DNA from: Candidatus Saccharimonadales bacterium
GTDB taxonomy: Bacteria; Patescibacteriota; Saccharimonadia; Saccharimonadales; JACQNP01
NCBI GenBank assembly: GCA_046350695.1
Contig: JAXLZX010000003.1
Span: 2,236-66,235, forward strand
Length of the DNA: 64,000 nucleotides
Reading direction: 5' to 3'
The position numbers and the translations under genes were made by a program. The notes beneath the pieces are model-generated. The model was not told where the DNA came from and did no database searches. It saw only the letters and a list, made by a program, of their open reading frames with translations. Shown in pieces: positions 19,536 to 43,472 of this stretch; position 1 is the first letter of the stretch; every line of letters starts with the position of its first letter.

Positions 19536-20174
19536 ATGAAGCTGACTAAATTTGTACATTCATGTGTTCTAGTGGAGCATAGCGGGAAGGCAGTTTTGTT
19601 TGATCCTGGAATATTTAGTTGGGGCAGCGGTACTGTTGACGTATCTGTATTGCCGGGCCTGGATGCTGTTGTAGTTAGCCATAAACATGCCGATCACTTT
19701 CACAAGCCGTTTGTGAAAGAATTAATACGAAAATTCCCTGATGCTCAATGGGCCGCACCGTTAGATATGCATGCTGACCTGCAATCATGGGGGGCGAAAA
19801 AAATAACGAATCAGTCGGTCAATGACTTAGATATCAATGAGATAGAGCACGCAGTTGTCGAACCGTTTGGCATACAGGTACACAATCTAATTACACATTT
19901 TATGGATCTAGTAACGCATCCTGGCGATACGCATAATTTTACAGAAACCAAAGACATACTATTATTGCCAGTGCAGGCACCTTGGGGGACAACAATCAGA
20001 GCTATTGAATTAGTAAACCAACTGAAGCCGAAATATATTCTTCCTATACACGATTGGATGTGGAATAACGATTGGCGAGAGAACGCCTATAATAGGTTTG
20101 AAGATCTCTTTGCTAATTCTGTAACAACTTTCTTGAGGCCTGTTGACGGCCAGTCGATTGAGGTTAGTTTGTGA
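19536..20174 (+). CDS. MBL-fold metallo-hydrolase
   Basis: HxHxDH motif (SHKHADHF). 212 aa. Confidence 0.65.
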   Translation: MKLTKFVHSCVLVEHSGKAVLFDPGIFSWGSGTVDVSVLPGLDAVVVSHKHADHFHKPFVKELIRKFPDAQWAAPLDMHADLQSWGAKKITNQSVNDLDINEIEHAVVEPFGIQVHNLITHFMDLVTHPGDTHNFTETKDILLLPVQAPWGTTIRAIELVNQLKPKYILPIHDWMWNNDWRENAYNRFEDLFANSVTTFLRPVDGQSIEVSL

Positions 20175-20953
20175 AATTCTTATATATAGGTGATGTTATG
20201 GCGGGGCCAGGTATTCAATCTGTAAGCGAGAACTTACCTAGGGCAAAGAAAATTTATGAACCCGATTTTGTTATTGTGCAAGCCGAGAACGTAAGTGATG
20301 GCAAAGGTATGACAGTTGCCGACATGAAACATCTGCAAAAAGTAGGAGTCGACTTTTTTACAGGGGGTAATCATACTCCAGCAAAAATTGAAATCGAAAG
20401 CTTGCTAACAGATCCAAATTCTCCAGTCATAGGCCCTGCCAACATGCCTGATTGCCCAGGTCTTGGCTACAAGTACGTCGGTGCTAAGGGTAAGAAGATA
20501 ATGATAATAACTCTTATGGGTAGCAAGGTGGGCAGGGAGATCAATATAACAAACCCATTACAAAAGATTGATGAGATTCTAAGTTTGCGTGATGATGGCA
20601 CGGATTTTACTATTGTAAATTTTCATGGAGATTTCAGTAGTGAAAAACGTATTATCGGATATTATTTAGATGGTAAAGTAACAGCTGTAGTCGGTGATCA
20701 TTGGCATGTCCCGACGGCCGATGCAATGATCTTGCCGCAAGGCACAGCGCACGTCACGGATGTAGGTATGTGTGGTAGTCTTCATTCCAGTCTAGGTGTC
20801 ACCCTAGAATCGGTTGTTCCTAGATGGAAGGACGGTACAATAACTACAAATGAAATTGCTACCAAACGACCATTTCAGTTTAATGCAGTCTTGTTTGAGG
20901 CGAATAATAAAGGCCTGGCTAATTCTATCAAAAGAATCCAGAATATAAACTAA
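20171..20953 (+). CDS. ymdB: YmdB-like metallophosphoesterase (TIGR00282 family)
   Basis: Motifs GDVMAGPG, QAENVSDGKGMT, GGNHT, NFHGDFSSEK and GDHWHVPTAD. Linkage to rny resembles that in Firmicutes. Confidence 0.8.
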   Translation: MKFLYIGDVMAGPGIQSVSENLPRAKKIYEPDFVIVQAENVSDGKGMTVADMKHLQKVGVDFFTGGNHTPAKIEIESLLTDPNSPVIGPANMPDCPGLGYKYVGAKGKKIMIITLMGSKVGREINITNPLQKIDEILSLRDDGTDFTIVNFHGDFSSEKRIIGYYLDGKVTAVVGDHWHVPTADAMILPQGTAHVTDVGMCGSLHSSLGVTLESVVPRWKDGTITTNEIATKRPFQFNAVLFEANNKGLANSIKRIQNIN

Positions 20954-21015
20954 CTGGTAAAAATCGTATTAATTTTGTATAATCTACTCCTGATAACAAA
21001 TTGTCAGCAAATTTG

Positions 21016-21131
21016 AAAACCAAGCAGAGCTGTTTACGAATTTGATAGGAGTTGGCTTTGTAAGTTTGCTTTTGATGATTGCAAATTTATTTTACAATCA
21101 TCTAGGTAAACTTACTATTACACAACGACGA
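21016..21131 (+). repeat. conserved leader, copy A (paralogue of 35595-35714), includes probable tRNA promoter
   Basis: Shared blocks with copy B: AGGAGTTGGCTTTGT (21047-21061), GCAAATTTATTTT, ACTATTACA and CGACGA. TTTACA-16-TACTAT is a candidate promoter. Confidence 0.6.
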
Positions 21132-21208
21132 CGGGGTGTGGCGCAGTTGGCTAGCGCGCGCGGTTTGGGACCGTGAGGTCGAAGGTTCGAGTCCTTTCAC
21201 CCCGACCA
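21132..21208 (+). tRNA. tRNA-Pro (anticodon TGG), CCA encoded
   Basis: Manual cloverleaf: acceptor CGGGGTG/CACCCCG, D stem GCGC/GCGC, anticodon stem CGCGG/CCGTG, loop TTTGGGA, T arm GAAGG-TTCGAGT-CCTTT. Confidence 0.9.
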
Positions 21209-22770
21209 TTCAAGACAGCTTGAGCCTTTTCCAGTTTGGAGAAGGCTTTTGTCATCTGATAGGACACTACTTTTTGTTCGTCTACGACTAGGTTCAAAAA
21301 GATTATTCGACATATACGGTCTTTTGCGACTTCATTGGCTGCCTTCACCTTAGAACCAGCGTTTTTAGCTAGGTTCAAAAATTGTTCAATGCTTAGCAGC
21401 TCTTCCTCTGGATCGTTTAAGGTGTCTCTTGAATCTTTAATTTGTTGCTCTAGGTCTTTGCGTTCTGCTTCCAATTTTTCAAGCTGCTCATTATTCACTT
21501 TCCAGACAGGGCTGTCCTGTTTGTAGTCAATGAGCCTTAACCCAATGTTTTTAATCCTTCGTTTGGTTGCTTTTAATGCACCCTCTTTGCTGTTTATTTC
21601 AGTTCTAAGTTCGAGCCGTCTTTTATCTGCTTGAATCGTTAGGTTGTCATGATAATACTGATAATCCTTTTCTGTAAGTTCTATCCCTTTTTCCAAGAGC
21701 TTGTAAATGAAATTAAATATCACAATCGCTCGTATAGACTTCTTCTTGCGAGGACAACTTTCACTATTACATCGGTAGTACAAATAGCGTTTACCAGCTC
21801 TAGCTTTCGAAGCAGCAGGACCCATACCTAGACCACAAAATGAGCATTTAATGAGCCCACGAAGCGGGTAGTACGTTTTTCGCCTATTAGTAACAAGTGG
21901 TGATTTGGTGGCTCTGTTGATACGTTGAACTTCATTGAAGTCTTCTTCACTTACTGCTGGCTTAAAATCGTATGCGTCCAACAGCGAAACATTTTTCTTA
22001 GTTTGAATTAGAACGCCGTAATAAAATGGGTCTCGGAAAACATCACTCAAAATCTGAAAGGTCATAGTGATTTTTTCGCCATACTTCTTTGACTTCGTAC
22101 TTTTAATTACACGACCATAACCTTGCTCATTCATGTACTCTGCAATTTCCCGTAAGCCAGTCCCGTTCTTTCGTAGCTGCCATGCTTCTACAATGAGGTC
22201 GTAGTTTTTACCGTCAGGAACATATATGCCCTCATCAGTACGGACATATCCATGCTTGGGCGTTCCTGATGATTTACCCTCTTTCAATGCTCGTTTATGA
22301 CCACGTTTTACGTTTTGAGATAAATTAGCGGAATAGTAAGTAGACAGTGTAAATGAAATTCCAAGTAGCATTTTGCCACTGGCATCGTTGGTAAAGTAAT
22401 GAGTACAGAACTTGAGGTCTTGAATGTATTTATCATCAATCAAGCCAAAAATTTTGCCACCGTCTTGCATGTTTCGTGCCAATCGGTCAGGGTGCCAAGC
22501 TATGATGCCATTCACCTTTCCTGCTTGTAGGTCGTTGAGCATATCTTTGAAACGATCCCGCTTAGGATTGTCAGGTATTTTTGCCGAAGCCTTATCTTCG
22601 TAGTAGGGCTTAGCTAGTCTAATCCCAAGTTTTGCAGCTAGTTCCTCACACTCGGCAATTTGGTCCTCAACAGAACGTTGTTGGCGTTCTTTATCGTCTG
22701 TAGATTTACGAACATAAAGAGCATATTTCAGTTTTGTTATGTCTACCTGTTCTTCTTGCTCGTTCTCCAT
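21151..22770 (-). CDS. large serine recombinase (resolvase/invertase N-domain + recombinase domain + zinc ribbon + coiled coil)
   Basis: N-terminus YALYVRKSTDDKERQQRSVEDQ carries the catalytic Ser context. DRLARN is present, and the zinc ribbon is CSFCG...YYRCNSESC. The last ~19 codons are antisense to tRNA-Pro, so the true C-terminus is uncertain. Confidence 0.9.
   Translation of the reverse strand: MENEQEEQVDITKLKYALYVRKSTDDKERQQRSVEDQIAECEELAAKLGIRLAKPYYEDKASAKIPDNPKRDRFKDMLNDLQAGKVNGIIAWHPDRLARNMQDGGKIFGLIDDKYIQDLKFCTHYFTNDASGKMLLGISFTLSTYYSANLSQNVKRGHKRALKEGKSSGTPKHGYVRTDEGIYVPDGKNYDLIVEAWQLRKNGTGLREIAEYMNEQGYGRVIKSTKSKKYGEKITMTFQILSDVFRDPFYYGVLIQTKKNVSLLDAYDFKPAVSEEDFNEVQRINRATKSPLVTNRRKTYYPLRGLIKCSFCGLGMGPAASKARAGKRYLYYRCNSESCPRKKKSIRAIVIFNFIYKLLEKGIELTEKDYQYYHDNLTIQADKRRLELRTEINSKEGALKATKRRIKNIGLRLIDYKQDSPVWKVNNEQLEKLEAERKDLEQQIKDSRDTLNDPEEELLSIEQFLNLAKNAGSKVKAANEVAKDRICRIIFLNLVVDEQKVVSYQMTKAFSKLEKAQAVLNGRGERTRTFDLTVPNRAR
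21223..21250 (+). terminator. intrinsic terminator after tRNA-Pro (embedded antisense in the recombinase ORF)
   Basis: AGCCTTTTCC-AGTTT-GGAGAAGGCT followed by TTTT (9 of 10 bp paired). Confidence 0.5.
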
Positions 22771-23001
22771 ATTCTAATTGTACCGTAAAGAGTTTTGACG
22801 GGCTGAAGTTATCGTCATTACAACATTACCTCAGAAAAAAATTTGGGAGCGGTTGCTAAGCATTTACAGATACAAAAAGATGAACGAGAATACCCTCTGG
22901 AACGCACGTAGAGCGTCTATGACGAGCTTTAACGCAGGAGTTAAAGAAACCCCCACCTGTCATAATTAGAGTAGGGGTTATTCAAATAAATAAGGAGATT
23001 T

Positions 23002-23232
23002 ATGACTGCGAAAAAAGCCATAGGCAGACCACTAAAAATGGACTCTAGAGTTATAACTAAGCTGATAGCAGCGATACAAACCAACTCTAATATTACAGAC
23101 GCTTGTAGATATGCGGGTATTAGTAGGGACACGTTCTATCGACACATGAGTAACAAAGTATTCGCCGAAAAAATGGCAACAGCTAAAGCGAATCAGAACA
23201 AGTTGATGATGAGTTTTCTGACAGTCTGGTGA
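23002..23232 (+). CDS. small helix-turn-helix protein (candidate recombination directionality factor or regulator)
   Basis: 76 aa, divergent from the recombinase. NITDACRYAGISRDTFYRHM is an HTH. A paralogue lies at 37303-37535. Confidence 0.6.
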   Translation: MTAKKAIGRPLKMDSRVITKLIAAIQTNSNITDACRYAGISRDTFYRHMSNKVFAEKMATAKANQNKLMMSFLTVW

Positions 23233-23357
23233 CCTAACTAGTTCCGTTTGCTGTATTTTTAAGAGTTTTACTGTAAGAAAATTTGTGCCGATCCATAATC
23301 CTCATGCTTGCAGTTTTGTAAATGACGGTGATAATAAGTAGTAGATTGGAGAAATAT

Positions 23358-23921
23358 ATGGCATCAGGTGAACAATTATCAGTTAGTACAGAACAATTCG
23401 AAGCACAGACCTTAGCATTAGTGGCAGAGCAAGCTCAAGTAACACGTGACTATGTGGCAGGTCAGGTTGATGACTGGCAACAGCTACCACTGCTCGCACT
23501 AAGGGCTAATGGGAAAAATGGTTGGAGTTCCCAACTTTCTATGACATCTGAGTATGGAGTTGTTAGAGTTGGGAGTGGTAAGCATTTTGCTGACAATCCT
23601 GAACAGCGTCCTGTAGGTTTATATGGAGTTTATGTAGATTGTTCTTCTGGTAACTTATTGCGTTTATTCGGTGACAGAGTTGCAATTTCATCACCAGAGG
23701 CACTTGCAGATGACAATGAAGTGTTCCACCTATGGGCTACGCAAGCTGCACTCGGCAAGCTCAGTGTATTGTCGGCAAAGACACATATTGAATCTTTGGA
23801 CAGACAGATTAGAGAGCCATTAGGAAGCTGGCGAACACTGGAAGAGGAAGATACAAGACTTGCAGGTATCACGGAAGAAATCTCAAGACGAGGGCTGACA
23901 AGCCGTTTCGTTCGTGGCTAG
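23358..23921 (+). CDS. hypothetical protein (island cargo, no family recognised)
   Basis: 187 aa counted from MASGEQ. GGAG lies 8 nt upstream. Composition looks coding. Confidence 0.5.
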   Translation: MASGEQLSVSTEQFEAQTLALVAEQAQVTRDYVAGQVDDWQQLPLLALRANGKNGWSSQLSMTSEYGVVRVGSGKHFADNPEQRPVGLYGVYVDCSSGNLLRLFGDRVAISSPEALADDNEVFHLWATQAALGKLSVLSAKTHIESLDRQIREPLGSWRTLEEEDTRLAGITEEISRRGLTSRFVRG

Positions 23922-23978
23922 AGTGTTCCTTACAGCCGTTATTAAGATAAAAATCCAATTATTTTATAATATGTAAAA

Positions 23979-24004
23979 TAACAGGGGTGGGCGAAAATAA
24001 CATA
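23979..24004 (+). repeat. 26-nt perfect direct repeat, copy 1 (TAACAGGGGTGGGCGAAAATAACATA), preceded by TATAAT
   Basis: Identical to 27070-27095. In both copies TATAATA lies 8-9 nt upstream. Confidence 0.8.
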
Positions 24005-24134
24005 AGCACTTGACAAGCGTCTTTGTCGCTAAAAAATACACTCTACCCCTGTTAGGGTACGACCGACAACGTATATTGTGCGACATATACTGCTTATGCT
24101 CGCAACCTACTCCTCTTAGCTATAAAATAGGGTT

Positions 24135-24740
24135 ATGAATCCCCGATGCAGCCAATGCTCACGACCAGCAGTAGCAAGTATGAGCAATCAGAACCTTTGT
24201 GTTGAACATGCAGCTATGATGGCAAACATGGTGCAGCGACAACAGGCACAGTCCGCTGCCATGATTAACTACCTAACCGAGCAGATTGAATGGACAATGG
24301 GTGTCCCGTCTTCTGGACCACGAATCGCAATACCACAACCACCCCCTACTGTCGTCCATCGTGGCAACGTAACAAACAACCAGTTTAGGATCGACAGAAG
24401 TGTTATAGGTGCTGTAAATACAGCAGAAGTAGCTAAGATTGAAGTCTCAATGAATAATATCCAAAATCAGGACTCAACAGCTTTTACTACTGCCATTAAA
24501 GAGCTTACAGAGGCGTTTGCTGCAAATGCAGAACTACAAGACAGCAAAAAAGAAGAACTGCTTGAGATTCTTTCATATCTATCGAGTCAGGCAACGTTAC
24601 CTGAACAGCAACAGCAAAAAACACTTATCAAGCGAATGATAAGTAGAGTCCCACAAATTATCACTACTGCTGCTGACCTCACTACGCTCTGGGTTGCTCA
24701 CCACCAAGCACTAAGCAGTTTCTTTAATCTGCCACACTAG
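24135..24740 (+). CDS. hypothetical protein with N-terminal Cys-rich (CxxC...CxxH) motif
   Basis: 201 aa. The start MNPRCSQCSRPAVASMSNQNLCVEH suggests a small zinc-binding element. The rest is helical and Gln-rich. Confidence 0.5.
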   Translation: MNPRCSQCSRPAVASMSNQNLCVEHAAMMANMVQRQQAQSAAMINYLTEQIEWTMGVPSSGPRIAIPQPPPTVVHRGNVTNNQFRIDRSVIGAVNTAEVAKIEVSMNNIQNQDSTAFTTAIKELTEAFAANAELQDSKKEELLEILSYLSSQATLPEQQQQKTLIKRMISRVPQIITTAADLTTLWVAHHQALSSFFNLPH

Positions 24741-24886
24741 AGCGTTATACGCCCACCGTTGTTATCTGATATTGTTGTTTCGTTAAGCTGAGCAAGAGTG
24801 CTCTTTTCATCAACCTCTTGAAGTAGCTTCATAAGCTCTGCTAAGGTTTGACCTTGCTCAACCAGAGTAGACTGGGCTTTACCCAT
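24737..24886 (-). CDS. possible 49-aa ORF (hypothetical)
   Basis: MGKAQSTLVEQGQTLAELMKLLQEVDEKSTLAQLNETTISDNNGGRITL. It is convergent with 24135-24740, and the two stop codons overlap at CTAG. Confidence 0.25.
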   Translation of the reverse strand: MGKAQSTLVEQGQTLAELMKLLQEVDEKSTLAQLNETTISDNNGGRITL

Positions 24887-25074
24887 ATACAACCCCAGCC
24901 GATGTTTTGGTTCGGCTCGTTAGTTTATATATGGGTGACCAAGACTAGTGTCTTACTGGTCGCTGCATCGCACCCTGATGCAATCGTTCTCATCTATAAT
25001 TATACTCTTTTTGCTTATGTTTTGCAAGAGCAAATACAATATAGCTGGTTCAAACGCAAGCTGGTTAATGATTA

Positions 25075-25332
25075 TTAGTAAGTATATATCTTGCCACTTA
25101 TCTGATTAGCAGACTCGCTGTCGTCAATCGTTGCCATTACTGGTGCAGTGTTTCGTTCATACTTCACGGTGTCCCAAGTTTCGTTTAAGGTGTTAAGTAT
25201 ACCCGCAAAAATTGGTTCAACATTATTCGCCTTTGAGCGACCATGATCGAAATCATTGGATTTAAGGAAACCTGCATAGGGTTCTTTTAATTTGAAGTCA
25301 GTTACTTCAATTTGGTAATAGTATTTTTGGGT
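25075..25332 (-). pseudogene. start-less 85-codon open frame (gene remnant)
   Basis: The frame ...YYQIEVTDFKLKEPYAGFLKSNDFDHGRSKANNVEPIFAGILNTLNETWDTVKYERNTAPVMATIDDSE... is bounded upstream by TAG. There is no ATG, GTG or TTG in the first two thirds. Confidence 0.3.
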
Positions 25333-25396
25333 CTAATTGAGCATTTGTGCTATCCCTGTGGATTTTGCTATTTATCCCTGTTATTATTTAGTATAC

Positions 25397-26338
25397 ATGA
25401 AAGCATTTATTTTTGACCCTCTTTGGGACGACCTAGTAACACCCGACCTACTGGAAGTACTCAAGCAAGCTAATGTAGATATTGTGGTTACTAAAGTCAT
25501 TGCTCCGTTAAGTGATTGCAAAGAGTTGTTTGAGGGTGATGAGGACAGGTTTTTATGTGTGAACCCTGACTATGTTGGCTGGAAGCTGAAAAGCGAAGAC
25601 TATGAAAAGATTCCTAACTTAAAGGGTATATTCACTGAATCCACTGGTTATGAGTGGGTTGAACCAAAAGCAGCTAATAGACTTGGTATACCGATTTGTA
25701 ACATAGTGGCTTTCAATACTCAGGCAGTTGCTGAATGGGCAGTTATGATGATGTTCAACTTAGCACGTCAGACGCCACGCTTAATCAAAGATGGTTTCCC
25801 GTTAGATTTTGATAAGGACTTCTCTAAGTATCGAGGCATACAGCTTAAGGGCAAAACAGCAGGTATTATCGGACTAGGAAACATTGGTTCAGCCATTGCA
25901 GAACGCTGTGCGGGACTGGGCATGAATGTAGTGTATTGGTCACGCTCCTCAACCAACGACAAGTATAAGAAGCTGTCATTGGAAGAGTTGCTGTCTACAG
26001 CAGACGTTATACTTCCTGCCACTGCTAAGAATGACGAAACTGTAAAGCTTGTTAATGACGATATGATTCGCACCATAAAGAAAGACGCTATGGTAGTAGA
26101 TATTGTTCACGCTATGTTTAATCATCAGCTACTCGTTGATATGGTGGCTTCTGGTGATTTGTATGGCTATGGTTTTGAGGGCGAACCAAAAGACTTTGCT
26201 AAGTTTGAAGGCAATGTCTGGGCCGCCCCTGCTTACGCTTGGGCTACTTATGAGTCTATGTATAACAGCGTAGCTAAATTGGTTGATAATATCGTAAGTG
26301 CCAGTAAGGGCGAGTTTCCAACAAGGGTAAATAAGTGA
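25397..26338 (+). CDS. D-isomer-specific 2-hydroxyacid dehydrogenase family protein
   Basis: NAD-binding GKTAGIIGLGNIGSAIAERCAGLGMNV. The start is set at MKAFIFD, because the TTG start in the ORF track looks like a spurious extension. Confidence 0.8.
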   Translation: MKAFIFDPLWDDLVTPDLLEVLKQANVDIVVTKVIAPLSDCKELFEGDEDRFLCVNPDYVGWKLKSEDYEKIPNLKGIFTESTGYEWVEPKAANRLGIPICNIVAFNTQAVAEWAVMMMFNLARQTPRLIKDGFPLDFDKDFSKYRGIQLKGKTAGIIGLGNIGSAIAERCAGLGMNVVYWSRSSTNDKYKKLSLEELLSTADVILPATAKNDETVKLVNDDMIRTIKKDAMVVDIVHAMFNHQLLVDMVASGDLYGYGFEGEPKDFAKFEGNVWAAPAYAWATYESMYNSVAKLVDNIVSASKGEFPTRVNK

Positions 26339-26475
26339 AACTTTTACTTACATCGGGGGGACTAACAAACCCAAGTATTTGTAAGGCTCTAGAAGACTTG
26401 GTTGGCAAACCTGCTAAAGAAACCAAAATTGGTTTTATCCCAACGACTGATAAATTTAATTGGTTAAAATCTTAG
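26335..26475 (+). pseudogene. N-terminal fragment of a peptidase S51 (PepE-like) gene
   Basis: VKLLLTSGGLTNPSICKALEDLVGKPAKETKIGFIPTT matches the family N-terminus, and a stop follows after 46 aa. GTGA overlaps the upstream stop. Confidence 0.5.
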
Positions 26476-26482
26476 TTCAAGT

Positions 26483-27060
26483 ATGATTGATTGGCAAGTA
26501 TACACAGCGTTTGGCACACGGGTATCGCAAAAAGGAACAAATCACGACAGTGCATTCTCTAACGGTACGCCTCATGGTGCATCACATATATGGATTTGGA
26601 AAAGAGAAAATGACCAAATCTATCTTCTATTTCAAGTAAGCTCTAGGAATGTCTCCTATAAGGGGGGATGTTAGATATATCAGCAGCAGGACACGTTGAT
26701 TTAGGCGAGACTGAGTTAGAAGCAGCAAAACGAGAGACGGCAGAAGAATTGGGTGTCCAGTTGAAAGATGATGATTTATATTTTGCTGGTGTCGAACACT
26801 ATCAACGAAAGACTGAAGACAGTCATAAGGATGAGTTTAGATTTGTTTACACAGTTGAATATCACGATGGAATGGAGTTCGTATTCCCAGACGGTGAAGT
26901 GGATGGAGTTGAATGGATTGAAGCAAGCTCTCCAGTAGAAATACTCAGTCGGGGTGACTTTACTGAGCGATTTGTGCAACACACAGAACACTACTTCAAT
27001 ATAGTGTTTTCAGGTATTAGTGGGCAGTCTTTAGTTGGTACAAATCACGACATTGTATAA
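26483..27060 (+). pseudogene. Nudix hydrolase gene split by a -1 shift in a G6 run
   Basis: ORF 26483-26674 (...LFQVSSRNVSYKGG) and ORF 26668-27060 (MLDISAAGHVDLGETELEAAKRETAEELGV, the Nudix box) join into one protein if the run at 26662-26667 were G7. The join mirrors the paralogue 12029-12445 (...RRSKNVSVPGLWNHSAAGHVD). Confidence 0.6.
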
Positions 27061-27069
27061 TAGGTTTTT

Positions 27070-27095
27070 TAACAGGGGTGGGCGAAAATAACATA
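27070..27095 (+). repeat. 26-nt perfect direct repeat, copy 2
   Basis: Identical to 23979-24004. Confidence 0.8.
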
Positions 27096-27443
27096 TCACG
27101 ATATATGGCAGGTCAGGGCTTTGACGGTCCAACTGTCTATAAACAGAGCAAAGTAGCAGGCGATACTGGACCAGGTTACACTGAAATAAGTAAGAACGAC
27201 AAAGTGCTAGTCTACAAAGACATTAATAATTATCCTGTAAAAGCTAGTAGTGATGGCGAGGGCTGTAGCCCAATAACGCAAGCACAAGCAGACGAGGCTA
27301 ATGCTTTTGCAAACTTCTTTCATCTTGCCGTAAATTATTCTAATGACAAAGTAAAAGGTGTAAATGGGCAGTTTGACGCTCGTAAGGGTGACTATACCAC
27401 TGTAAGAGAGCAACTCATAGATACTTTGAACACCATAAAATAA
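27078..27443 (+). CDS. hypothetical protein (start uncertain: GTG 27078 inside the repeat, or ATG 27106)
   Basis: ORF of 112-121 aa. No family recognised and no clear SD. Confidence 0.35.
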   Translation: MGENNISRYMAGQGFDGPTVYKQSKVAGDTGPGYTEISKNDKVLVYKDINNYPVKASSDGEGCSPITQAQADEANAFANFFHLAVNYSNDKVKGVNGQFDARKGDYTTVREQLIDTLNTIK

Positions 27444-27735
27444 TCTATGTCGGTAAAATAACATACAACTTTTAGTCAAATCTTCCACTTGGTCATTTCG
27501 TCAAGACCGAACATGGGTAATTAATTATAGCTGTGTAATTCAAGTTTCATTTAGTTAGCTTTTTAGATTCCGCAGAGCTTGAGATACACCTGTTTGCGCT
27601 GGTACGTCTAGTATCACGACTATTTAATTATATTTAGAATTTGCTGTCAGTTCAATTTTGCTCTGTTGATATTATTGTAACGAGCAGCCTTAAGTTATAT
27701 TTGCGGCATACTTAATTCAACCATACTTATGTATG

Positions 27736-35473: not shown

Positions 35474-35520
35474 ACCTTGCAAAGTTTTTAGCCACTTGTT
35501 TGCTAAAAACTCTACAAGGT
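35474..35520. repeat. 19-bp-stem hairpin flanked by direct repeats (GTCGTAGTACG / GTCTAGTACG)
   Basis: ACCTTGCAAAGTTTTTAGC, a 9-nt loop, then GCTAAAAACTCTACAAGGT (17 of 19 bp paired). No T-run follows. Confidence 0.6.
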
Positions 35521-35594
35521 CTAGTACGACTACTCCTTACGCTCGGTAAACTTTAATTATAATTAACTGGTTTATCTCGCACTATACAGTCTAT

Positions 35595-35791: not shown

Positions 35792-37008
35792 TTCTAGACG
35801 GAGAGCCTCAAGAAGGCTCTTTTTCATCTGTTGAGATATTGTTCTAACCTCATTTAATTGTGCTACGAAGTGTTTTGTATTATCACGCAAGGGTAGCAAC
35901 CATTCGTAAGGTGTTATTTGGAGTTTGCCATCTATTAGCACTGGGTTCTGACCAAGTGCCAGCAAGATTTCCTTTTTATCAGCAATATCGCCGTTTATGA
36001 ACTTAGAGTTAGCGTTCATGAACTTACTTATCAGGTTAGTCATGTAGTCATACCAGCCTTCGGTATTCTAATTACTAGTAGCCTGTTGCTTGTGCAGCTC
36101 TTTTAATTTAGCCTTGAGTTTGGCGGATTTCTCAATAAATGTATCTTCGTCTACGAGCTTGCGAGTAGACATGTCTAACAGGGTATCAAGCTGGTCTTTT
36201 AAGCCCTTTATAGCCTGTTCCTGCATAGTTTCTACACTCTTGCGTTCTGGTATGTCAGCTTGAGCCATTTGGTTAATAGCGTCCATGCTCCAATCGTAAA
36301 GTTCTGGTATTAGCTCCCAGTTATTGAGTTCATCTACACATTCCTTGAATAGTTCATCTTCCGTTTTATAGCCATACTTCTTAATCTGACTGCATGGGCG
36401 TTCTCCAGTACAGTGATAGTAGGTATTTACATGCGTAACACCCTTAGAGTTAGTACGTTCCTTACTTTGAGCCGTAATCATACAGCCACATTCACCACAG
36501 CGTATAAAGCCACGTAGTACGAACTGTTTACGGGTAGCGAAACGCTTGCCACCATGACGACCTAGTAATAGTTGGATTTTGTCGTATTCTTCCATTGTCA
36601 TTAAGGCTGGAAAGTCTGCTGGATACATTTTGTCTTCATCATAGGGATCGGCACCCAACCAGCGTAGCGGACGTTACGGAACATATAGTAGAGCGATGAA
36701 CGGCCTATTGGCTTACCGCCAACCTTCTTGATTATATCTCTCGTAGAGGCTTTGAGCACATCAAAACGTTTCCATATTGGCTGTGGCTCTATTGCAGCCA
36801 ATTCAGGGTTTTTTTCGTACAGTTTCTGAAGCTCGTTAACCAATAGTATGTAGGCTCGGTTAATTTCTTGTATGTCTTCGTTTGGTGAAAGCCCAGCATT
36901 ATCAACCAAGTAGATATTCATAATCATACCCATGACAAGTAAATTCAGTTCACGAGCTACAGCGTAGTCGTTAACAGCCCCATCGTGTTTGGTTGCAGCA
37001 TCTCTCAT
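35750..37008 (-). pseudogene. large serine recombinase pseudogene (three frame fragments, catalytic N-domain missing)
   Basis: Fragments 36601-37008 (recombinase domain, ...SSLYYMFRNVRYAGWV), 36068-36658 (zinc ribbon FIRCGECGCMITAQ...YYHCTGERPC plus coiled coil) and 35750-36043 (C-terminal part) are collinear with the 21151-22770 protein. No resolvase-type Ser domain is present upstream. Confidence 0.75.
35802..35824 (+). terminator. intrinsic terminator after tRNA-Arg(TCT)
   Basis: AGAGCCT-CAAGA-AGGCTCT followed by TTTT. Confidence 0.6.
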
Positions 37009-37082
37009 TGGTTGCTGATTATAGGGTATTGGCTGTAGAGAGGTATATAGGCACTGGTGGTTGGTGGTAGGATGGAGTTGTT

Positions 37083-37235
37083 ATGATTCTGCTAATAATT
37101 CCGCTAATTGCATGTCTTCTGGTGGTTATTACTAGTTTTAGCAAAAAGCATCCATCGCCGAGAAACACAGCCCAGCACCAGCAAGATGACGAGCTAGTGG
37201 CCGTGATTTTGCCGACTGTCACCAAAGAGAACTGA
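37083..37235 (+). CDS. possible 50-aa single-pass membrane peptide
   Basis: MILLIIPLIACLLVVITSFSKKHPSPRNTAQHQQDDELVAVILPTVTKEN, with GGAG 4-5 nt upstream. It occupies the place where the recombinase catalytic domain should be encoded on the other strand. Confidence 0.3.
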   Translation: MILLIIPLIACLLVVITSFSKKHPSPRNTAQHQQDDELVAVILPTVTKEN

Positions 37236-37302
37236 CCAGCCCGAAAAACGCTCGTCTGTCATAATAGTAAGAGAGGGGCTAATACAAAAAGAAGGAGTTT
37301 TT

Positions 37303-37535
37303 ATGGCTATAAGTAACCCTGTGGGACGACCACAGTATTAAATATCAGAACCTTGCTGAGGCTGACTGATGCTTTGAAAAATAACTACAACGTCACTGAC
37401 AGTTGCAAATGGGTGGGTATCTCAAGGAATACGTACTACAGACACCTGGACAATGACATGGCGTTCGAAGCACGAGTGAATTACGCAATAGAGTGCAGAA
37501 ATAAAGTGTCTTTTAATTTTGACACAATTTTCTAG
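37303..37535 (+). pseudogene. frameshifted paralogue of the island-1 small HTH gene
   Basis: MAISNPVGRPQY* in frame 0, then ...LNIRTLLRLTDALKNNYNVTDSCKWVGISRNTYYRHL... in another frame. This is collinear with MTAKKAIGRPLKMDSRVITKLIAAIQTNSNITDACRYAGISRDTFYRHM. The promoter and SD regions are also homologous (CTGTCATAAT...AAGGAG). Confidence 0.65.
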
Positions 37536-37843
37536 GTTAACTTGTGATTTTGCACAAGATTTCAAGAAATTGGTGTCACTTAATTAAGGGGAGAAAATTG
37601 GCGTTATGGGTCAAAAATCTGGCGGAAAATTATATACGGCATGACCCTCGTTATATATCGTGCTCTAGATGAACGGGCTTTAATACCCTCTGTAAGCTAT
37701 CCAGGGGTCACAGGAGAGGTTTTAGGACAAAAGTTAGGTAAGGTTACACGTTGAAAATAAGTTGTGCTTTGACATCATTTTGTTCATTGACAAGCTTATG
37801 CTTGGGTTTCCCGTAACAAGTGTTTATAATTCTCTCTAAGAAT

Positions 37844-38536
37844 ATGAGTGAGAGCCTACACAAACCTACTATTGCTATATTAGCCTCAGGAAGTGGCTCT
37901 ACCGCCGAGGCATTTATTCACGCAACTCAAGACGGCCGTGTTTCGGCAGAAGTTGGTCTAATCGTATGCAACAACCCACCTGAAAAGGCTGGAATCTTTG
38001 CTAGGGCTGCTAAGTTAAATGCACTCTATGGACTTGATATTGAAACTGTAGAGATTAGTGGTCGTACACACCCCGATGGGAATGTTGGTCGTGGACAAAC
38101 ACTTAGCGAATCATCTGCTATTTGCAAACGTATTAGTGACGGTGGCTTTGCTCACGTAGCTCTTATGGGTTATATGAAAATGGTTCGTGGTGAACTTATT
38201 GAGGAGTACGGCTGGCAGCCGACCTATGATTCCATCTACCAAGCTAGAATGACCAATACCCACCCAGGTCCATTGCCAGAAACAGAAGACACGTACGGTA
38301 TACATACTTCTGAACGAGTTTTAGAACTAGGTATGCCAGCTTCACGCCACACTGTTCACTTAGTGGCTGACGGTATTGATAGAGGCCCAAAGATTGCCGA
38401 ACACCCAGTTGAAGTGATTGAGGGCGATACGGCACAAAGTTTGTTTGACAGAGTTCAGATAGTAGAAAAAGTAGCGTTGCCATACGTTATAGGTAAATTC
38501 ATAGACGAACAAGGAGACTATCTTGGCAATTCATGA
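37844..38536 (+). CDS. purN: phosphoribosylglycinamide formyltransferase
   Basis: Motifs IAILASGSGSTAEAF and NTHPGPLP, with a Asp-containing ADGIDRGPKI segment. The start is set at MSESLHK. Confidence 0.75.
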   Translation: MSESLHKPTIAILASGSGSTAEAFIHATQDGRVSAEVGLIVCNNPPEKAGIFARAAKLNALYGLDIETVEISGRTHPDGNVGRGQTLSESSAICKRISDGGFAHVALMGYMKMVRGELIEEYGWQPTYDSIYQARMTNTHPGPLPETEDTYGIHTSERVLELGMPASRHTVHLVADGIDRGPKIAEHPVEVIEGDTAQSLFDRVQIVEKVALPYVIGKFIDEQGDYLGNS

Positions 38537-41360
38537 GATTAGGGTCACGCCGATTGAGGGTGACCCAACTGGTCACGAAGTTCAGCAAGAAGCGGAACGC
38601 ACACTAGGTTTGGACAGTTTAGAAGCTGTTAGGACAGCAAGAGTATATCGTGTTCAGGGAGTTAGCGAAGAAGAAGCTCACACACTAGCAGGACAACTTT
38701 TTACAGACCCAGTGAGTGAGCAATACAGTTTAGACCAACCAGTAGGTTTTGAAACTCCTCACGTTGTTGAAGTAGCGTATAAGCCTGGCGTTATGAACCC
38801 AGAGGTATCTTCAATTATGAAAGCCGCTCAAGACCTAGGCATTAGCCCACAAGCAGTTGATTCTTCAAGAGAATATGCGTTTTTCGGTAATGTAGAACCA
38901 GCTCAAGTTGATGGTGTAGTTGGACGATTACTGATGAATAAGACCGTGGAACAGGTTGTTACCGAAAAGCCATCATCACTAACCTTTGAAGGAAGTGTTG
39001 GACCCGTCAATATTGTACCGATTAGAGAAGCTTCAGTTTCGCAATTAGCAGAGTTATCAAAAGATAAGCTATTCCTTAACGATGAAGAAATGGTTGTTGT
39101 CCAAAAACACTTCCGAAAGCTTGACCGTGACCCAACAGATGCTGAACTTGAAATTATCGCTGCACGTTGGAGTGAACACTGTGGACACAAGACATTCAAC
39201 GCAAAAGTTGTAGTTGATGGTGTCGAGAAAGAGCCGTTATACACACGAATCAAGAATGCAGCCGAAGAGCAATTCGGGGACTTAGTCGTTTCTGCATTTG
39301 GGGACAATTCGGGCGTTATGAGGTTTTATGACGGTCAAGCTATATGTGGCAAGGTAGAAACACACAATAGCCCGTCAGCTATTGAGCCTTATGGTGGTGC
39401 GATGACGGGTAGTGGTGGTGTGTTCCGTGACATTATGGGGACTGGTCAAGGTGCCAAGACAATCATATCTACCGACATGTTCTGTTTTGCCCTACCTGAC
39501 CTTGATGAGGGTCTTTTACCTTCTGGTACTTTGCACCCTGATTACCTACAGCGGCGAGTTGTACAAGGAGTGCGGGATTACGGCAATCGTATGGGTATCC
39601 CAACGGGCAATGGCTCTGTACATTATCACGAAGACTTTAGGGCTAAGCCTACTGTAATAGTCGGAGCATACGGCATTATGCCTGAGGCACGTGCTGAAAA
39701 GGGCGAACCACTCGTTGGCGACCTAGTTGTTATTATTGGTGGCAAAACAGGTCGTGATGGTATACACGGTGCGACTTTCTCATCAGGCGAAATGACTGAC
39801 CGTACAGCCAACGTGAATTCAAGTGCAGTACAAATCGGAAACGCTATTGAAGAAAAGCGTATGTTTGATGCCCTAATTGAAGCAAGAGATTTGGGATACA
39901 TTCGTGCATTAACCGATTGCGGTGCTGCTGGATTCTCATCTGCTATCGGTGAAATTGGTGAGAACGTAGGTTTAACCGTAGACATCAGCAAGGCACCGCT
40001 TAAATATCCAGGTCTAGCTCCTTGGGAAATTTGGCTTAGTGAATCACAAGAACGTATGGTTGCAGCAATATCACCCGACAACATAGAGGAGTTTCTTGCT
40101 GTTAGCCGTAAATACAATGTTGAATCTACCGTACTTGGCGTATTTGACGGTAGCCATACTCTAACCGTGAACTACGGCGAGCAAAATGTTGCAGAACTTG
40201 ACTATGAGTTTTTGTCTGACGGTCTACCGCAACGTGTTATGCAAGCACATTGGGAACGGGTTGATGTACCTGAAGTAACACCTGATATTCCACAAAACGA
40301 ACAAGAGTGGGTTGATAGAATTAAAGCTGTTTTGTCCCACGGTAACGTGTGTTCCAAAGAACCTATAGTCAGACAATACGACCACGGAGTTCAAGGTGGC
40401 AATGTTGTTTCGCCATTTGGCGGAATAAAGCAAGATGGACCAAATGACGCCTTGGTTGTACGACCAATACTTGATAAGCCTTATGGTGTAGTTCAATCTC
40501 ACGGCATGAACCCAATACTTAATAGATTAGACCCGTTTGAAGGGACAGTTTGGGCGATTGCAGAGGCGGCTGCAAATTATGTTTCTGCTGGCGGTAACAT
40601 TGACGAAGCGGCAGCAGTCGGTAATTACATCTGGCCATTTCCAGATGAAGAAGCCATGGGTTCGCTAGACCGTTCGGTTGACGCTGCCGTAGAAATGATG
40701 CACAGGTTAAAGCTTCCTGTTATATCGGGCAAAGATAGCCTTTCATCAACATACCGAGGTAAAGAAGGACAAGTTATCAAGATTCCACCTGTCTACACAA
40801 TGTCTATATTTGGTCGTATTCCTGACGTAGAAAAGACTATGACAAGCGACATAAAGCAAGCTGGTTCAACCTTGGTATTAGTAGGAAATCTAGGTGAAGG
40901 CATGGCAGGGTCGGCTTATTATGACGTTGTAGGCGGAAGTAGCAACAACATACCACTTGTTGATAAAGAAACTTTACCAGCCGTGCTTGGTTCAGTACAT
41001 CAAGCTATAGTCGGCGGTAAAGTCCTTGCGTGTCATGATGTGAGCGAGGGTGGTGTAATCTCGGCTGTTGCAGAAATGTGCTTTGGTGGCAATGTTGGCG
41101 TAGAACTCGAACCTAGTAATGTGTCAGCTGCTCGAATGGATAAGTTCCTGTTTAATGAAACGGCTGGCTGTTTTGTAGTCGAAGTTGAAAGTGACGAAGT
41201 AGCACACGAACTATTTGGCAATGTTCCATATCAAAAGCTAGGTCAAACAACTGCTGATAAAACTATAGAGGTGCGTCAGCAAAATGGAGTTGTCTTTAGC
41301 GTAGCAACAGACGAACTTAAGGGTGCGTGGCAAGCACCTATGAAAGGTATTTTTCACTAA
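38523..41360 (+). CDS. purL: phosphoribosylformylglycinamidine synthase subunit PurL with two N-terminal PurS-like repeats
   Basis: The core carries VETHNSPSAIEPYGGAMTGSGGV and GKTGRDGIHGATFSS, and is duplicated as in AIR-synthase-related folds. An extra ~165 aa at the N-terminus form two units of about 80 aa. Apparent TTG start, overlapping purN by 14 nt. Confidence 0.85.
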   Translation: MAIHEIRVTPIEGDPTGHEVQQEAERTLGLDSLEAVRTARVYRVQGVSEEEAHTLAGQLFTDPVSEQYSLDQPVGFETPHVVEVAYKPGVMNPEVSSIMKAAQDLGISPQAVDSSREYAFFGNVEPAQVDGVVGRLLMNKTVEQVVTEKPSSLTFEGSVGPVNIVPIREASVSQLAELSKDKLFLNDEEMVVVQKHFRKLDRDPTDAELEIIAARWSEHCGHKTFNAKVVVDGVEKEPLYTRIKNAAEEQFGDLVVSAFGDNSGVMRFYDGQAICGKVETHNSPSAIEPYGGAMTGSGGVFRDIMGTGQGAKTIISTDMFCFALPDLDEGLLPSGTLHPDYLQRRVVQGVRDYGNRMGIPTGNGSVHYHEDFRAKPTVIVGAYGIMPEARAEKGEPLVGDLVVIIGGKTGRDGIHGATFSSGEMTDRTANVNSSAVQIGNAIEEKRMFDALIEARDLGYIRALTDCGAAGFSSAIGEIGENVGLTVDISKAPLKYPGLAPWEIWLSESQERMVAAISPDNIEEFLAVSRKYNVESTVLGVFDGSHTLTVNYGEQNVAELDYEFLSDGLPQRVMQAHWERVDVPEVTPDIPQNEQEWVDRIKAVLSHGNVCSKEPIVRQYDHGVQGGNVVSPFGGIKQDGPNDALVVRPILDKPYGVVQSHGMNPILNRLDPFEGTVWAIAEAAANYVSAGGNIDEAAAVGNYIWPFPDEEAMGSLDRSVDAAVEMMHRLKLPVISGKDSLSSTYRGKEGQVIKIPPVYTMSIFGRIPDVEKTMTSDIKQAGSTLVLVGNLGEGMAGSAYYDVVGGSSNNIPLVDKETLPAVLGSVHQAIVGGKVLACHDVSEGGVISAVAEMCFGGNVGVELEPSNVSAARMDKFLFNETAGCFVVEVESDEVAHELFGNVPYQKLGQTTADKTIEVRQQNGVVFSVATDELKGAWQAPMKGIFH

Positions 41361-43276: not shown

Positions 43277-43277
43277 T

Positions 43278-43472
43278 CTATAAATCTGCAAGCTTATCAC
43301 AGTTCACCCCACTAGCTGCCTTTTGTTGCTGATCCATTTGTATAAGGACATCAAAATAATTTACTAGATTATAAATGGCTTCTTGGTATTCTTCGTCAGT
43401 GTCGTATGTAATACCAGACTTAGCAAAAGCAACTTTCCAGCTTTCTAAGTCTTTACCTGTGATTGTACGCAT
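43278..43472 (-). CDS. hypothetical 64-aa protein
   Basis: MRTITGKDLESWKVAFAKSG..., with GGGAG 6-7 nt upstream. The longer ORF-track start looks spurious. Confidence 0.4.
   Translation of the reverse strand: MRTITGKDLESWKVAFAKSGITYDTDEEYQEAIYNLVNYFDVLIQMDQQQKAASGVNCDKLADL

What the first reader, a model, noticed from the sequence alone, without database searches (positions are those of the whole stretch)
20984..27622. Island 1: an apparently intact serine-recombinase island whose two edges reassemble into an unsplit site seen at 35519-35537
An island lies between ymdB (ends 20953) and a minus-strand membrane-protein gene (ends 27736). It holds:
- a conserved leader and tRNA-Pro(TGG);
- a convergent, full-length large serine recombinase with its catalytic N-domain present;
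- a divergent small HTH gene;
- two ORFans, a dehydrogenase and several gene fragments.

The left edge carries CTACTCCT (20984-20991). The right edge carries GTCTAGTATCACGACTA (27606-27622). Joined through the CTA present in both, they give GTCTAGTA(TCA)CGACTACTCCT.

This is almost exactly the contiguous 19-mer GTCTAGTACGACTACTCCT at 35519-35537. That 19-mer occupies the equivalent position upstream of the paralogous module of island 2.

This is the attL/attR versus attP relationship expected for a serine recombinase with a very short crossover core (TA or CTA). It would mean the island carries its own tRNA-Pro rather than having inserted into a host tRNA gene.
Basis: partly seen in the sequence, partly recalled or inferred. 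Interest (0 to 1): 0.75.

Follow-up and report, generated by a model that had tools for sequence, protein, structure and literature searches.

The report
Small serine-recombinase element in tRNA-Pro

Summary

- **tRNA-Pro is a host gene.** tRNA-Pro(TGG) next to ymdB is conserved across about 60 Saccharibacteria species.
- **The leader is host sequence.** It is present on an empty-site contig.
- **The real element is 4,035 bp (21210-25244).** It is flanked by CGACCA(T), the 3' end of tRNA-Pro. Two metagenome contigs of the same strain show the empty site. The same block, 99.6-100% identical, sits in other host backgrounds and always ends at ...CGACCA.
- **The recombinase ORF crosses attL.** Its last 19 codons are antisense tRNA. 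Rejoining the ends restores a 576-aa protein with a conserved tail of about 55 aa, encoded at 25242-25078. That tail is under purifying selection.
- **The site geometry fits a large serine recombinase.** The element-side arm carries a (G)GTTC motif 5 bp further from the core than the tRNA T-loop GGTTC. All seven elements examined show this.
- **Island 2 has the same architecture.** It spans 35792-43603, sits at tRNA-Arg and carries pur genes.

Whether the tail swap controls directionality is inference.

The parts
20171..20953 (+). ymdB, host left flank
   Evidence: Pfam YmdB hit on the called genes. ymdB followed by tRNA-Pro is conserved synteny in 80 GTDB loci.
20984..20991 (+).
   Evidence: 20951-20999 is conserved with one mismatch in L008, whose ymdB is 81% identical. 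The 8-mer occurs 7 times in the window.
21000..21131 (+). Host leader upstream of tRNA-Pro, with a long hairpin at 21060-21115; a paralogue lies at 35590-35714
   Evidence: Present on empty-site contig L004. Diverged in L008. The two paralogues differ by 10 compensatory pair changes. No Rfam match.
21132..21208 (+). Host tRNA-Pro(TGG); its 3' part is the B arm of attB, with T-loop GGTTC at 21184-21188, 19 nt before the core
   Evidence: ARAGORN and Rfam. Ancestral position next to ymdB. Arm geometry.
21203..21209 (+). Core copy 1 (attL), CGACCAT: last bases of the tRNA including CCA, plus T
   Evidence: L004 and L100 join 21209 directly to 25245 through one copy of this 7-mer.
21210..25244 (.). 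The mobile element, 4,035 bp
   Evidence: The block 21132-25243 is 99.6-100% identical in L090-L099 and L008 in other host backgrounds. Identity always ends at ...CGACCA. The empty site was seen twice (L004, L100).
21222..21248 (+). Hairpin in the P' arm followed by UUUUGU; possible surrogate terminator for tRNA-Pro, and it also encodes KAFSKLEKAQ on the minus strand
   Evidence: Fold energy -21.8 kcal/mol, z = -4.3. Function is inferred.
21151..22770 (-). Large serine recombinase, integrated form (539 aa). Codons 1-520 are element-encoded. The last 19 codons and the stop (21151-21209) are antisense tRNA-Pro.
   Evidence: Pfam PF00239, PF07508 and PF13408. Translations. The same antisense-tRNA tails occur in about 100 of the 120 best homologues.
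23002..23232 (+). 76-aa HTH protein divergent from the recombinase; regulator or directionality-factor candidate
   Evidence: Weak Pfam HTH hits. PHROG small-terminase HTH families, E = 2e-11. 34% identical homologue in island 2.
23322..23921 (+). orfA, 199 aa, unknown function
   Evidence: No Pfam hit. One weak PHROG hit.
23948..24100 (+). Conserved non-coding block (TATAAT...AACAGGGGTGGGCG...TTGACA...ACCCCTGTTAGGG) shared by distantly related elements
24135..24740 (+). orfB, 201 aa, unknown function; the exact protein is indexed in 70 blocks of the contig collection
25075..25242 (-). Split-off C-terminal exon of the recombinase (GRSKANNVEPIFAGILNTLNETWDT...IYTY*). It overlaps the P arm, whose GGTTC at 25214-25218 lies 24 nt before the core.
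   Evidence: Translation. Tail HMM E = 1e-12. Homologous tails are contiguous in full-length homologues. dN/dS 0.06-0.37. Arm geometry.
25238..25244 (+). Core copy 2 (attR), CGACCAT
25245..27735 (+). Not part of the present element: dehydrogenase, gene fragments, frameshifted NUDIX, and ORF 27078-27443 preceded by a relic of the element-type non-coding block (27039-27095). Probably older accreted material.
   Evidence: Present on the empty-site contig L100 and in L101-L106. Relic block. Pseudogene polymorphisms.
27606..27622 (+).
   Evidence: All nine contigs that span it are collinear with the window; L109 ends at 27613. No tail-exon hit nearby.
35519..35537 (+).
   Evidence: (I19).
35792..43603 (.). 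Island 2: a decayed element of a second recombinase family at the 3' end of tRNA-Arg(TCT). GTACCA lies at 35786-35791 and 43598-43603. It holds a recombinase pseudogene, an HTH gene, purN, purS/L, purQ, purM, and a tail exon at 43541-43603.
   Evidence: Boundaries are inferred; no empty site was seen.

Best explanation
**Shown.** A 4,035-bp integrative element (21210-25244) sits at the 3' end of the host tRNA-Pro(TGG) gene of a Candidatus Saccharibacteria genome.
- It encodes a large serine recombinase (LSR), a small HTH protein and two proteins of unknown function.
- It is flanked by one copy each of CGACCA(T), the discriminator base, the CCA end and one further base of the tRNA.
- attB is the tRNA 3' end plus a variable downstream flank.
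- attP lies inside the recombinase's own reading frame, at the codons for ..N-G-R...
- Integration therefore separates the last 55 or so codons to the far end of the element, next to attR. The integrated gene instead reads through attL into antisense tRNA, giving 19 unrelated residues. Rejoining the ends restores a 576-aa ORF.
- The P arm carries a (G)GTTC motif 24 nt from the core. The tRNA T-loop GGTTC is 19 nt from the core in the B arm.

**Inferred.**
- The recombinase's zinc-ribbon domain reads the T-loop motif. The +5-bp offset is the usual attP/attB distinction for LSRs.
- The crossover dinucleotide is the central AC of CGACCA.
- The full-length enzyme, made only from the excised circle, carries out integration. 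The tail-less enzyme, made from the integrated copy, carries out excision, with or without the HTH protein. The element would then sense its own state.
- The hairpin in the P' arm replaces the displaced tRNA terminator.
For: **Presence and absence with exact junctions.**
- L004 and L100 join window 21209 to 25245 at 100% and 99.99% identity.

**Recent spread.**
- The block 21132-25243 is 99.6-100% identical in L008, whose ymdB is 81% identical, and in L090-L099, whose RNase Y gene is 72% identical.
- Six different host flanks start right after ...TTTGAGCGACCA.
- A different element occupies the same site in L102.

**Host status of the tRNA.**
- ymdB followed by tRNA-Pro is conserved, often without a recombinase.

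**Split gene.**
- Translations give 539 aa integrated and 576 aa rejoined.
- Thirteen full-length homologues have the same tail contiguous with the gene.
- About 100 of the 120 best homologues end in antisense-tRNA peptides.
- In six independent GTDB loci, a second CGACCA 2.9-7.5 kb downstream restores an in-frame tail.
- Tail dN/dS is 0.11-0.37, and 0.06-0.34 for the part beyond the att arm.

**Site geometry.**
- (G)GTTC lies at 19 nt in the B arm and 24 nt in the P arm in 7 of 7 elements.

**A second family.**
- The island 2 recombinase family shows the same design.
Against: - No contig with the attP (circle) junction was found in the JGI metagenome or IMG/VR collections. The JGI collection holds only three relatives of the element, so excision is inferred, not observed.
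- The crossover position within CGACCA cannot be resolved from sequence.
- The first 8-10 tail residues (NVEP, NEP, LEL) also encode the P-arm GGTTC motif, so part of the tail's conservation is a DNA constraint.
- The structure model of the tail is of low confidence.
- No recombination directionality factor has been identified.
- A role of the tail in directionality is untested.
Confidence: 0.85

Rival explanations
1. A 6.6-kb island (20984-27622) carries its own leader and tRNA-Pro. Its attL and attR are CTACTCCT and GTCTAGTATCACGACTA, and the unsplit counterpart is the 19-mer at 35519-35537.
For: The motifs exist. The 14 shared bases, with a 3-nt gap, are unlikely for two pre-specified short regions. 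A TTTAATTATAnTTA run follows both copies.
Against: - The leader and tRNA are present on the empty-site contig.
- The tRNA is ancestral at this locus.
- The left motif is conserved host sequence in a diverged strain, while the leader next to it has diverged.
- No contig varies at 27622.
- The alignment is not significant once the freedom of search is counted.
- No match to the predicted circle junction.
- The 19-mer lies outside island 2.
Confidence: 0.02
2. The element is immobile. The 'empty' contigs are deletions between chance 7-bp repeats, or assembly artefacts.
For: Only a 7-bp repeat is shared at the junction. No circle junction was found.
Against: - The same two boundaries recur in six or more host backgrounds at 88-100% element identity.
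- The junction sits at the tRNA CCA end in seven unrelated elements.
- A k = 141 contig cannot be chimeric across 7 bp.
- The GGTTC +5 geometry is present.
- The split exon is under purifying selection.
Confidence: 0.04
3. The overlap of attP with the ORF is only genome compaction. The tail is needed for folding or general activity, or is dispensable, and has no role in directionality. The integrated copy may even be inactive, a bacterial 'suicidal' integrase that needs a second copy or a helper to excise.
For: - Archaeal SSV-type integrases are split in this way and are thought to be disabled after integration (PMC8371274).
- Part of the tail's conservation is a DNA-level constraint.
- Decayed copies exist: island 2, and L142.
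Against: - Near-identical copies in hosts 72-81% identical to each other imply repeated excision from the integrated state.
- All catalytic and DNA-binding domains remain in the 520 element-encoded residues.
- The distal tail is under purifying selection.
- The design recurs in two recombinase families.
- None of this discriminates between 'tail controls direction' and 'tail needed only for integration'.
Confidence: 0.35
4. The whole stretch from tRNA-Pro to about 32100 is a stack of successive insertions at the same tRNA, and the 4-kb element is only the newest. This is compatible with the best explanation.
For: - In many relatives tRNA-Pro is followed within 0.2-1.5 kb by tRNA-Pro(CGG) or the homologue of 32777-33430.
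- A relic of the element-type non-coding block lies at 27039-27095.
- Pseudogenes and polymorphic frameshifts occur.
- Tandem arrays and hybrid recombinase-tail fusions occur elsewhere: P0179, L110 and L060.
Against: No older attR or tail exon is detectable in 25245-32100. The closest available genomes (70% aa identity in YmdB) are too distant to define an ancestral flank.
Confidence: 0.5

Closest known systems
Large serine integrases of phages and integrative elements (phiC31, Bxb1, A118/LI, TP901-1)
   Same: - Domain order: resolvase catalytic domain, recombinase domain, zinc ribbon with a long helical insertion.
- Short att sites with a tiny common core.
- A recognition motif placed 5 bp further out in the attP half-site than in the attB half-site. 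That this offset is typical of the family is from my own knowledge of the LI integrase structural work.
   Different: - The target is the 3' CCA end of a tRNA gene rather than a protein-coding gene.
- The B' half-site is variable.
- attP lies inside the integrase ORF, so the C-terminal 55 or so residues are exchanged on integration.
- The elements are only 3-8 kb and carry no phage or conjugation genes.
SSV1-type ('suicidal') tyrosine integrases of archaeal viruses and plasmids (PMC8371274)
   Same: The attachment site lies inside the integrase gene. The targets are tRNA genes. Integration splits the gene and excision restores it.
   Different: Those are tyrosine recombinases in archaea, and the split removes a piece required for function. 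Here the enzyme is a serine recombinase in bacteria (candidate phyla radiation, CPR). Only a small C-terminal domain is detached, and all canonical domains stay together.
   Same: attP lies inside a coding sequence next to int. Integration into a tRNA gene changes a protein's C-terminus, and this is used as a state sensor.
   Different: There the gene that is cut is the repressor and the integrase is a tyrosine recombinase. Here it is the serine integrase itself.
Streptococcal integrative mobilizable element IME_Spy2096_SNF2 (PMC5357655)
   Same: The element has a serine integrase, and its recombination site was noted to lie within the integrase gene.
   Different: It is a single case mentioned in passing, with its target inside snf2. 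No conserved detachable tail, tRNA target or family-wide pattern was described.
Classical tRNA-linked genomic islands with tyrosine integrases
   Same: Integration at the 3' end of a tRNA gene, the tRNA kept intact, and repeated use of the same site as a hotspot.
   Different: Those elements carry a long (about 15-60 bp) copy of the tRNA 3' part as a direct repeat. Here only 6-7 bp are shared, and the P arm imitates the T-loop motif at a shifted position instead of duplicating the tRNA.

Membership tests
Large serine recombinase (serine integrase) | N-terminal resolvase-type catalytic domain with the serine nucleophile | tested here: met
   PF00239, E = 3e-25, residues 17-166. YVRKST motif with invariant R21 and S23 in alignment A4.
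Large serine recombinase (serine integrase) | Recombinase domain plus zinc-ribbon domain with a coiled-coil insertion | tested here: met
   PF07508 and PF13408 above their cut-offs. Long helices at 367-413 and 421-449 in the AF2 model, pLDDT 70-93 there.
Large serine recombinase (serine integrase) | Short attB and attP with a minimal common core and half-site motifs offset by about 5 bp between attP and attB | tested here: met
   6-7 bp core. (G)GTTC at 19 nt (B arm) and 24 nt (P arm) in 7 of 7 elements. Only the left arms show this clearly.
Large serine recombinase (serine integrase) | 2-bp staggered cleavage at a central dinucleotide; unidirectional without a directionality factor | not testable with these tools
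   Requires biochemistry. A central AC is predicted from the arm lengths only.
   L004 holds ymdB, the leader and an intact tRNA-Pro joined to 25245. The tRNA is ancestral at this locus in about 60 species.
   All 17 contigs that cover 20984 (L001-L007) or 27622 (L100-L109) are collinear with the window there or end.
SSV-type 'suicidal' integrase | attP inside the integrase gene, and the gene is split on integration | tested here: met
SSV-type 'suicidal' integrase | Tyrosine recombinase fold and catalytic residues | tested here: not met
   The only recombinase in the element is a serine recombinase.
Prophage | Capsid, tail, portal, large terminase or lysis genes | tested here: not met
   The 4 kb holds only the LSR, an HTH protein and two ORFans. 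The only PHROG hits are small-terminase-like HTH families for the 76-aa protein, plus one weak unknown-function hit for orfA. Few and distant relatives in IMG/VR.
Integrative mobilizable or conjugative element | Relaxase, oriT or coupling protein | tested here: not met
   No such Pfam or PHROG hit in the element. An oriT cannot be excluded; the conserved non-coding block 23948-24100 has no assigned function.

The most novel reading that the evidence does not exclude
The attP-in-ORF design may be a built-in directionality switch. The excised circle encodes the full-length recombinase, whose C-terminal domain permits attP x attB and blocks attL x attR. The integrated copy encodes a tail-less enzyme with an antisense-tRNA stub that is competent for excision. 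A 3-5-kb element would then need no separate directionality factor. Thousands of such recombinases, in at least two families, would read the universal T-loop/CCA end of tRNA genes.
Probability: 0.3. Interest if true: 0.85.

Novelty: new variant of a known kind. Interest (0 to 1): 0.62.

Why it matters
- **Corrected annotation.** The mobile unit, its att sites and the ownership of the tRNA are now defined for this locus.
- **Misannotated C-termini.** Most database entries of this recombinase family (more than 2,500 homologues) carry spurious C-termini that are translated antisense tRNA.
- **A testable question on directionality.** Here the integrase protein differs between the integrated and excised states. 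This makes it directly testable how minimal elements control the direction of serine recombination.
- **Possible tool value.** Recombinases that recognise the conserved T-loop/CCA end of tRNA genes with a relaxed second half-site could serve as tools with ready-made landing sites in many genomes.
- **Gene gain in reduced genomes.** Island 2 suggests that such elements delivered a purine-biosynthesis operon to a reduced-genome episymbiont. This is a concrete route for metabolic gain in bacteria of the candidate phyla radiation.

Tried and rejected
- **Circle junction.** Exact scans for the real attP junction found nothing in the JGI metagenome contigs or IMG/VR. An 18-mer control returned 34 loci, of which only 3 are true relatives, so the negative result is weak.
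No match in IMG/VR.
Two tail-exon HMMs searched against the six-frame translation of the window gave no hit near 27606-27622 or 35519-35537.
- **B' flank as an older recombinase 3' end.** Translating the B' flank gave nothing recombinase-like.
- **Structure of the rejoined recombinase.** The AlphaFold2 model has mean pLDDT 62 and the tail is below 50. It is uninformative about where the tail docks, so no fold search was run.
- **Known RNA families.** Rfam over 20-44 kb found only the three tRNAs.
- **Non-coding block as an RNA.** The stems of the conserved block show no covariation, so an RNA role is unsupported.
- **Dehydrogenase look-up.** The exact dehydrogenase protein is not on record.
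- **Variation at island 2.** All five contigs carry the island.
- **Composition.** The profile does not separate island from host.
- **Viral relatives.** Five distant hits only.
- **Contig breaks inside the tRNA.** The breaks at 21148-21159 were first considered as a crossover point. They are better explained by the tRNA being shared among co-occurring Saccharibacteria in the assembly graphs, because attR holds no displaced tRNA 3' half.

Full report
**1. The observation**

- CTACTCCT at 20984-20991
- GTCTAGTATCACGACTA at 27606-27622
- GTCTAGTACGACTACTCCT at 35519-35537

The listed features are also real. tRNA-Pro(TGG) is at 21132-21208. On the minus strand lies a convergent 539-aa large serine recombinase (LSR) with Resolvase, Recombinase and Zn-ribbon domains. 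The other genes are a divergent 76-aa HTH gene, two ORFans, a 2-hydroxyacid dehydrogenase and NUDIX fragments.

The match itself is weak:
- The 8-mer occurs 7 times in the window, mostly inside genes.
- The 17-mer matches the 19-mer only across a 3-nt gap.
- The best local alignment of the two neighbourhoods is an AT-rich 14-mer. Its score is reached by 2.3% of shuffles and by 19 of 899 other windows.

**2. Organism and ancestral locus**

A scan of species-representative genomes with YmdB returned 80 loci, nearly all labelled Candidatus Saccharibacteria or Saccharimonadales. The best is 70% identical at the protein level.

The conserved order across them is:
- ymdB
- tRNA-Pro(TGG)
- sometimes tRNA-Pro(CGG)
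- the homologue of 32777-33430
- the P-type ATPase
- tRNA-Gly, tRNA-Arg and tRNA-His

Often only 50-80 nt separate ymdB from the tRNA, and there is no recombinase (for example L047, L053, L082). tRNA-Pro next to ymdB is therefore a host gene.

**3. The real element and its junctions**

*Empty site.* Two contigs join window 21209 directly to 25245 through a single CGACCAT. They are L004 (ERZ27268135) and the 32-kb L100 (SRR25435987), at 100% and 99.99% identity. L004 keeps ymdB, the leader and the whole tRNA; L100 begins inside the tRNA at 21144.

*Occupied site in other hosts.*
- L008 carries the recombinase, HTH gene and tRNA at 99.96% identity. Its leader has diverged, with insertions, and its ymdB is only 81% identical.
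- L090-L099 carry window 21132-25243 at 99.6-100% identity.
- In L090, L091, L097, L098 and L099 the left flank is a different species. Its RNase Y gene is 72% identical, and there is no lactamase or ymdB before the tRNA.

*Right boundary.* Identity always stops at ...TTTGAGCGACCA. It is followed by six different host flanks, several of which are tRNA terminators.

*Competing element.* In L102 the window strain carries a different element at the same junction.

The mobile unit is thus 21210-25244 (4,035 bp). Core copies lie at 21203-21209 and 25238-25244. To the left of the attR core there is no displaced tRNA 3' half, so the crossover must lie within the core.

The many contigs that break at 21148-21159 are best explained by the tRNA being shared among co-occurring Saccharibacteria in the assembly graphs.

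**4. attP lies inside the recombinase gene**

The integrated ORF stops at 21151, inside the tRNA. Its last 19 residues (GERTRTFDLTVPNRAR...) are antisense tRNA-Pro.

Rejoining 25244 to 21210 gives a 576-aa ORF. Its last 55 residues (GRSKANNVEPIFAGILNTLNETWDT...IYTY) are encoded at 25242-25078.

A database search with this protein found more than 2,500 homologues. Among the best 120:
- About 100 stop just after the conserved ..[N/S]GR junction with antisense-tRNA peptides (GRGERTRT..., GRGDRI, SRGAGN).
- Thirteen are 552-571 aa long and carry a homologous tail contiguous with the gene (G[A/G/R]PEATKLELFEALCDAILQHWD...Y.Y).
- A tail HMM hits window 25332-25078 at E = 1e-12.

Independent loci show the same thing. 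In six GTDB loci with recombinases only 30-42% identical to this one, all sitting at tRNA-Pro, a second CGACCA 2.9-7.5 kb downstream restores an in-frame tail of 39-48 aa. Four of these tails are clearly homologous to each other (NEPILQTLHSLLLNF...SERASKMQFLL).

The tail exons evolve under purifying selection. dN/dS is 0.11-0.37 overall, and 0.06-0.34 beyond the first 12 codons.

**5. Site geometry**

In all seven elements examined, the tRNA T-loop GGTTC (GGTTT in L062) starts 19 nt before the core in the B arm. A (G)GTTC starts 24 nt before the core in the P arm.

A 5-bp outward shift of the zinc-ribbon recognition motif in attP relative to attB is the accepted basis of site discrimination by LSRs. 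That statement is my own knowledge of the LI integrase work and was not checked here.

- This supports reading these sequences as true LSR half-sites. It also predicts sites of about 44 bp (attB) and about 54 bp (attP), centred on the AC of CGACCA.
- It means that the first tail residues (VEP, NEP, LEL) are partly fixed by DNA constraints.
- The B' half-site is not conserved between hosts.

**6. Other contents of the element**

- The HTH protein resembles the HTH of small terminase subunits.
- orfA and orfB have no informative hits.
- The P' arm forms a strong hairpin followed by UUUUGU directly after the tRNA. It may replace the displaced terminator.
- A non-coding block of about 150 nt (23948-24100) is conserved in elements with very different recombinases. 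Its first half recurs at 27039-27095, outside the element. This suggests an older related insertion to the right.
- No older attR or tail exon is detectable there.

**7. Island 2 and the 19-mer**

The island 2 recombinase is a pseudogene without its catalytic domain. Its ORF ends ...EALRLEW|YPGRDSNPRPNG, which is antisense tRNA-Arg.

Nearly all of its 58 homologues end in W followed by antisense-tRNA peptides. A few continue W|LAILDEVRTLLL..., W|YAILDQVRTLYL....

The only GTACCA in the 14 kb downstream is at 43598-43603. It restores W|YSIIEQVRPLFLAYHRSNAL, which aligns with those tails.

Island 2 is therefore inferred to span 35792-43603, with purN, purS/L, purQ and purM as cargo. It is present in all five contigs examined.

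This removes the puzzle of an 'unsplit site inside an integrated island'.

**8. Mechanism**

*Shown:* site-specific presence and absence, spread between hosts, and the gene split with its restoration.

*Inferred:* the integrated 539-aa form must support excision, because near-identical copies occur in hosts that are 72-81% identical to each other. The 576-aa form exists only after excision, when integration is the reaction needed. The tail swap is therefore a plausible state sensor or directionality device (probability about 0.3).

The main alternative is that the tail is needed only for integration or stability, or that integrated copies are 'suicidal' like SSV-type archaeal integrases (PMC8371274).

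No circle junction was found.

**9. Novelty**

Six full-text searches found no description of tRNA-targeting serine integrases with attP in their own ORF, and none of such elements in the candidate phyla radiation (CPR).

Precedents for parts of the design:
- archaeal suicidal tyrosine integrases
- one streptococcal IME whose site lies within its serine integrase gene (PMC5357655)
- mycobacteriophage integration-dependent immunity (from memory)

I rate it a new variant of a known kind. The literature check is limited to open-access text.

Noticed in passing
window 35792-43603 (cores at 35786-35791 and 43598-43603): Island 2 appears to be a 7.8-kb element of a second serine-recombinase family at the 3' end of tRNA-Arg(TCT). 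It carries purN, purS/L, purQ and purM as cargo. Its recombinase is a pseudogene, and a 21-aa tail exon at 43541-43603 matches the tails of intact relatives.
   Followed up: partly
window 21018-21131 and 35598-35714: Two paralogous leaders of about 115 nt lie directly 5' of tRNA-Pro and tRNA-Arg(TCT), the two tRNAs that are recombinase targets. They share a conserved 5' block (AGCTGTTT...AGGAGTnGGCTTTGT) and a long hairpin with 10 compensatory pair changes. There is no Rfam family. The leader is absent from most related species, where the ymdB-tRNA spacer is 50-80 nt, and it has diverged in L008.
   Followed up: partly
window 23948-24100; relic at 27039-27095; L057 14058-14185; L066 16958-17090; L119 481-615: A non-coding block is conserved at the DNA level in elements whose recombinases are only 31-42% identical. 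An AACAGGGGT/ACCCCTGTT inverted repeat brackets a TTGACA-16-AAAAAT promoter-like site. The stems show no covariation, so it looks like a protein-binding or regulatory DNA site.
   Followed up: partly
L102 5900-8451; P0179; L110 2-190 and 2047-3744: A different element, with an L041-type tail exon, HTH_23, SHOCT, MerR-like and nucleotidyltransferase genes, occupies the same tRNA-Pro site in another sample. Some recombinases are fused in frame to the tail exon of a different element (P0179, P0007), as expected if an element integrates into the attR of a resident one. This implies tandem arrays and tail swapping.
   Followed up: partly
L060 6268, 6435, 8016, 8202: Four extra copies of the tRNA-Pro 3' end (GTCCTCTATCCCCGACCA) lie downstream of the element in one Saccharibacteria genome.
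   Followed up: no
L142 1192-1989: A relative's locus keeps the tRNA-Pro, about 60 nt of the P' arm and the tail exon with its core, but only about 460 nt lie between them. The recombinase and cargo have been deleted.
   Followed up: no
window 25358-26338 and 26483-27060: Pseudogene polymorphism exists within the population. The NUDIX gene is frameshifted in the window (63 + 130 aa) but intact (192 aa) in L101-L104 and L106. The dehydrogenase is intact in the window and L100 but split (138 + 145 aa) in L101, L102 and L104.
   Followed up: partly
window 21222-21248: The hairpin plus U-run directly after tRNA-Pro lies inside the recombinase coding sequence, on the opposite strand. Host flanks at empty-type sites in other genomes carry their own terminators right after CCA. 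Island 2 has an analogous hairpin at 35800-35822.
   Followed up: partly
window 23002-23232: The 76-aa HTH protein next to the recombinase matches PHROG families annotated as small terminase subunit (E = 2e-11). This is a hint, no more, that the element could interact with phage packaging.
   Followed up: no
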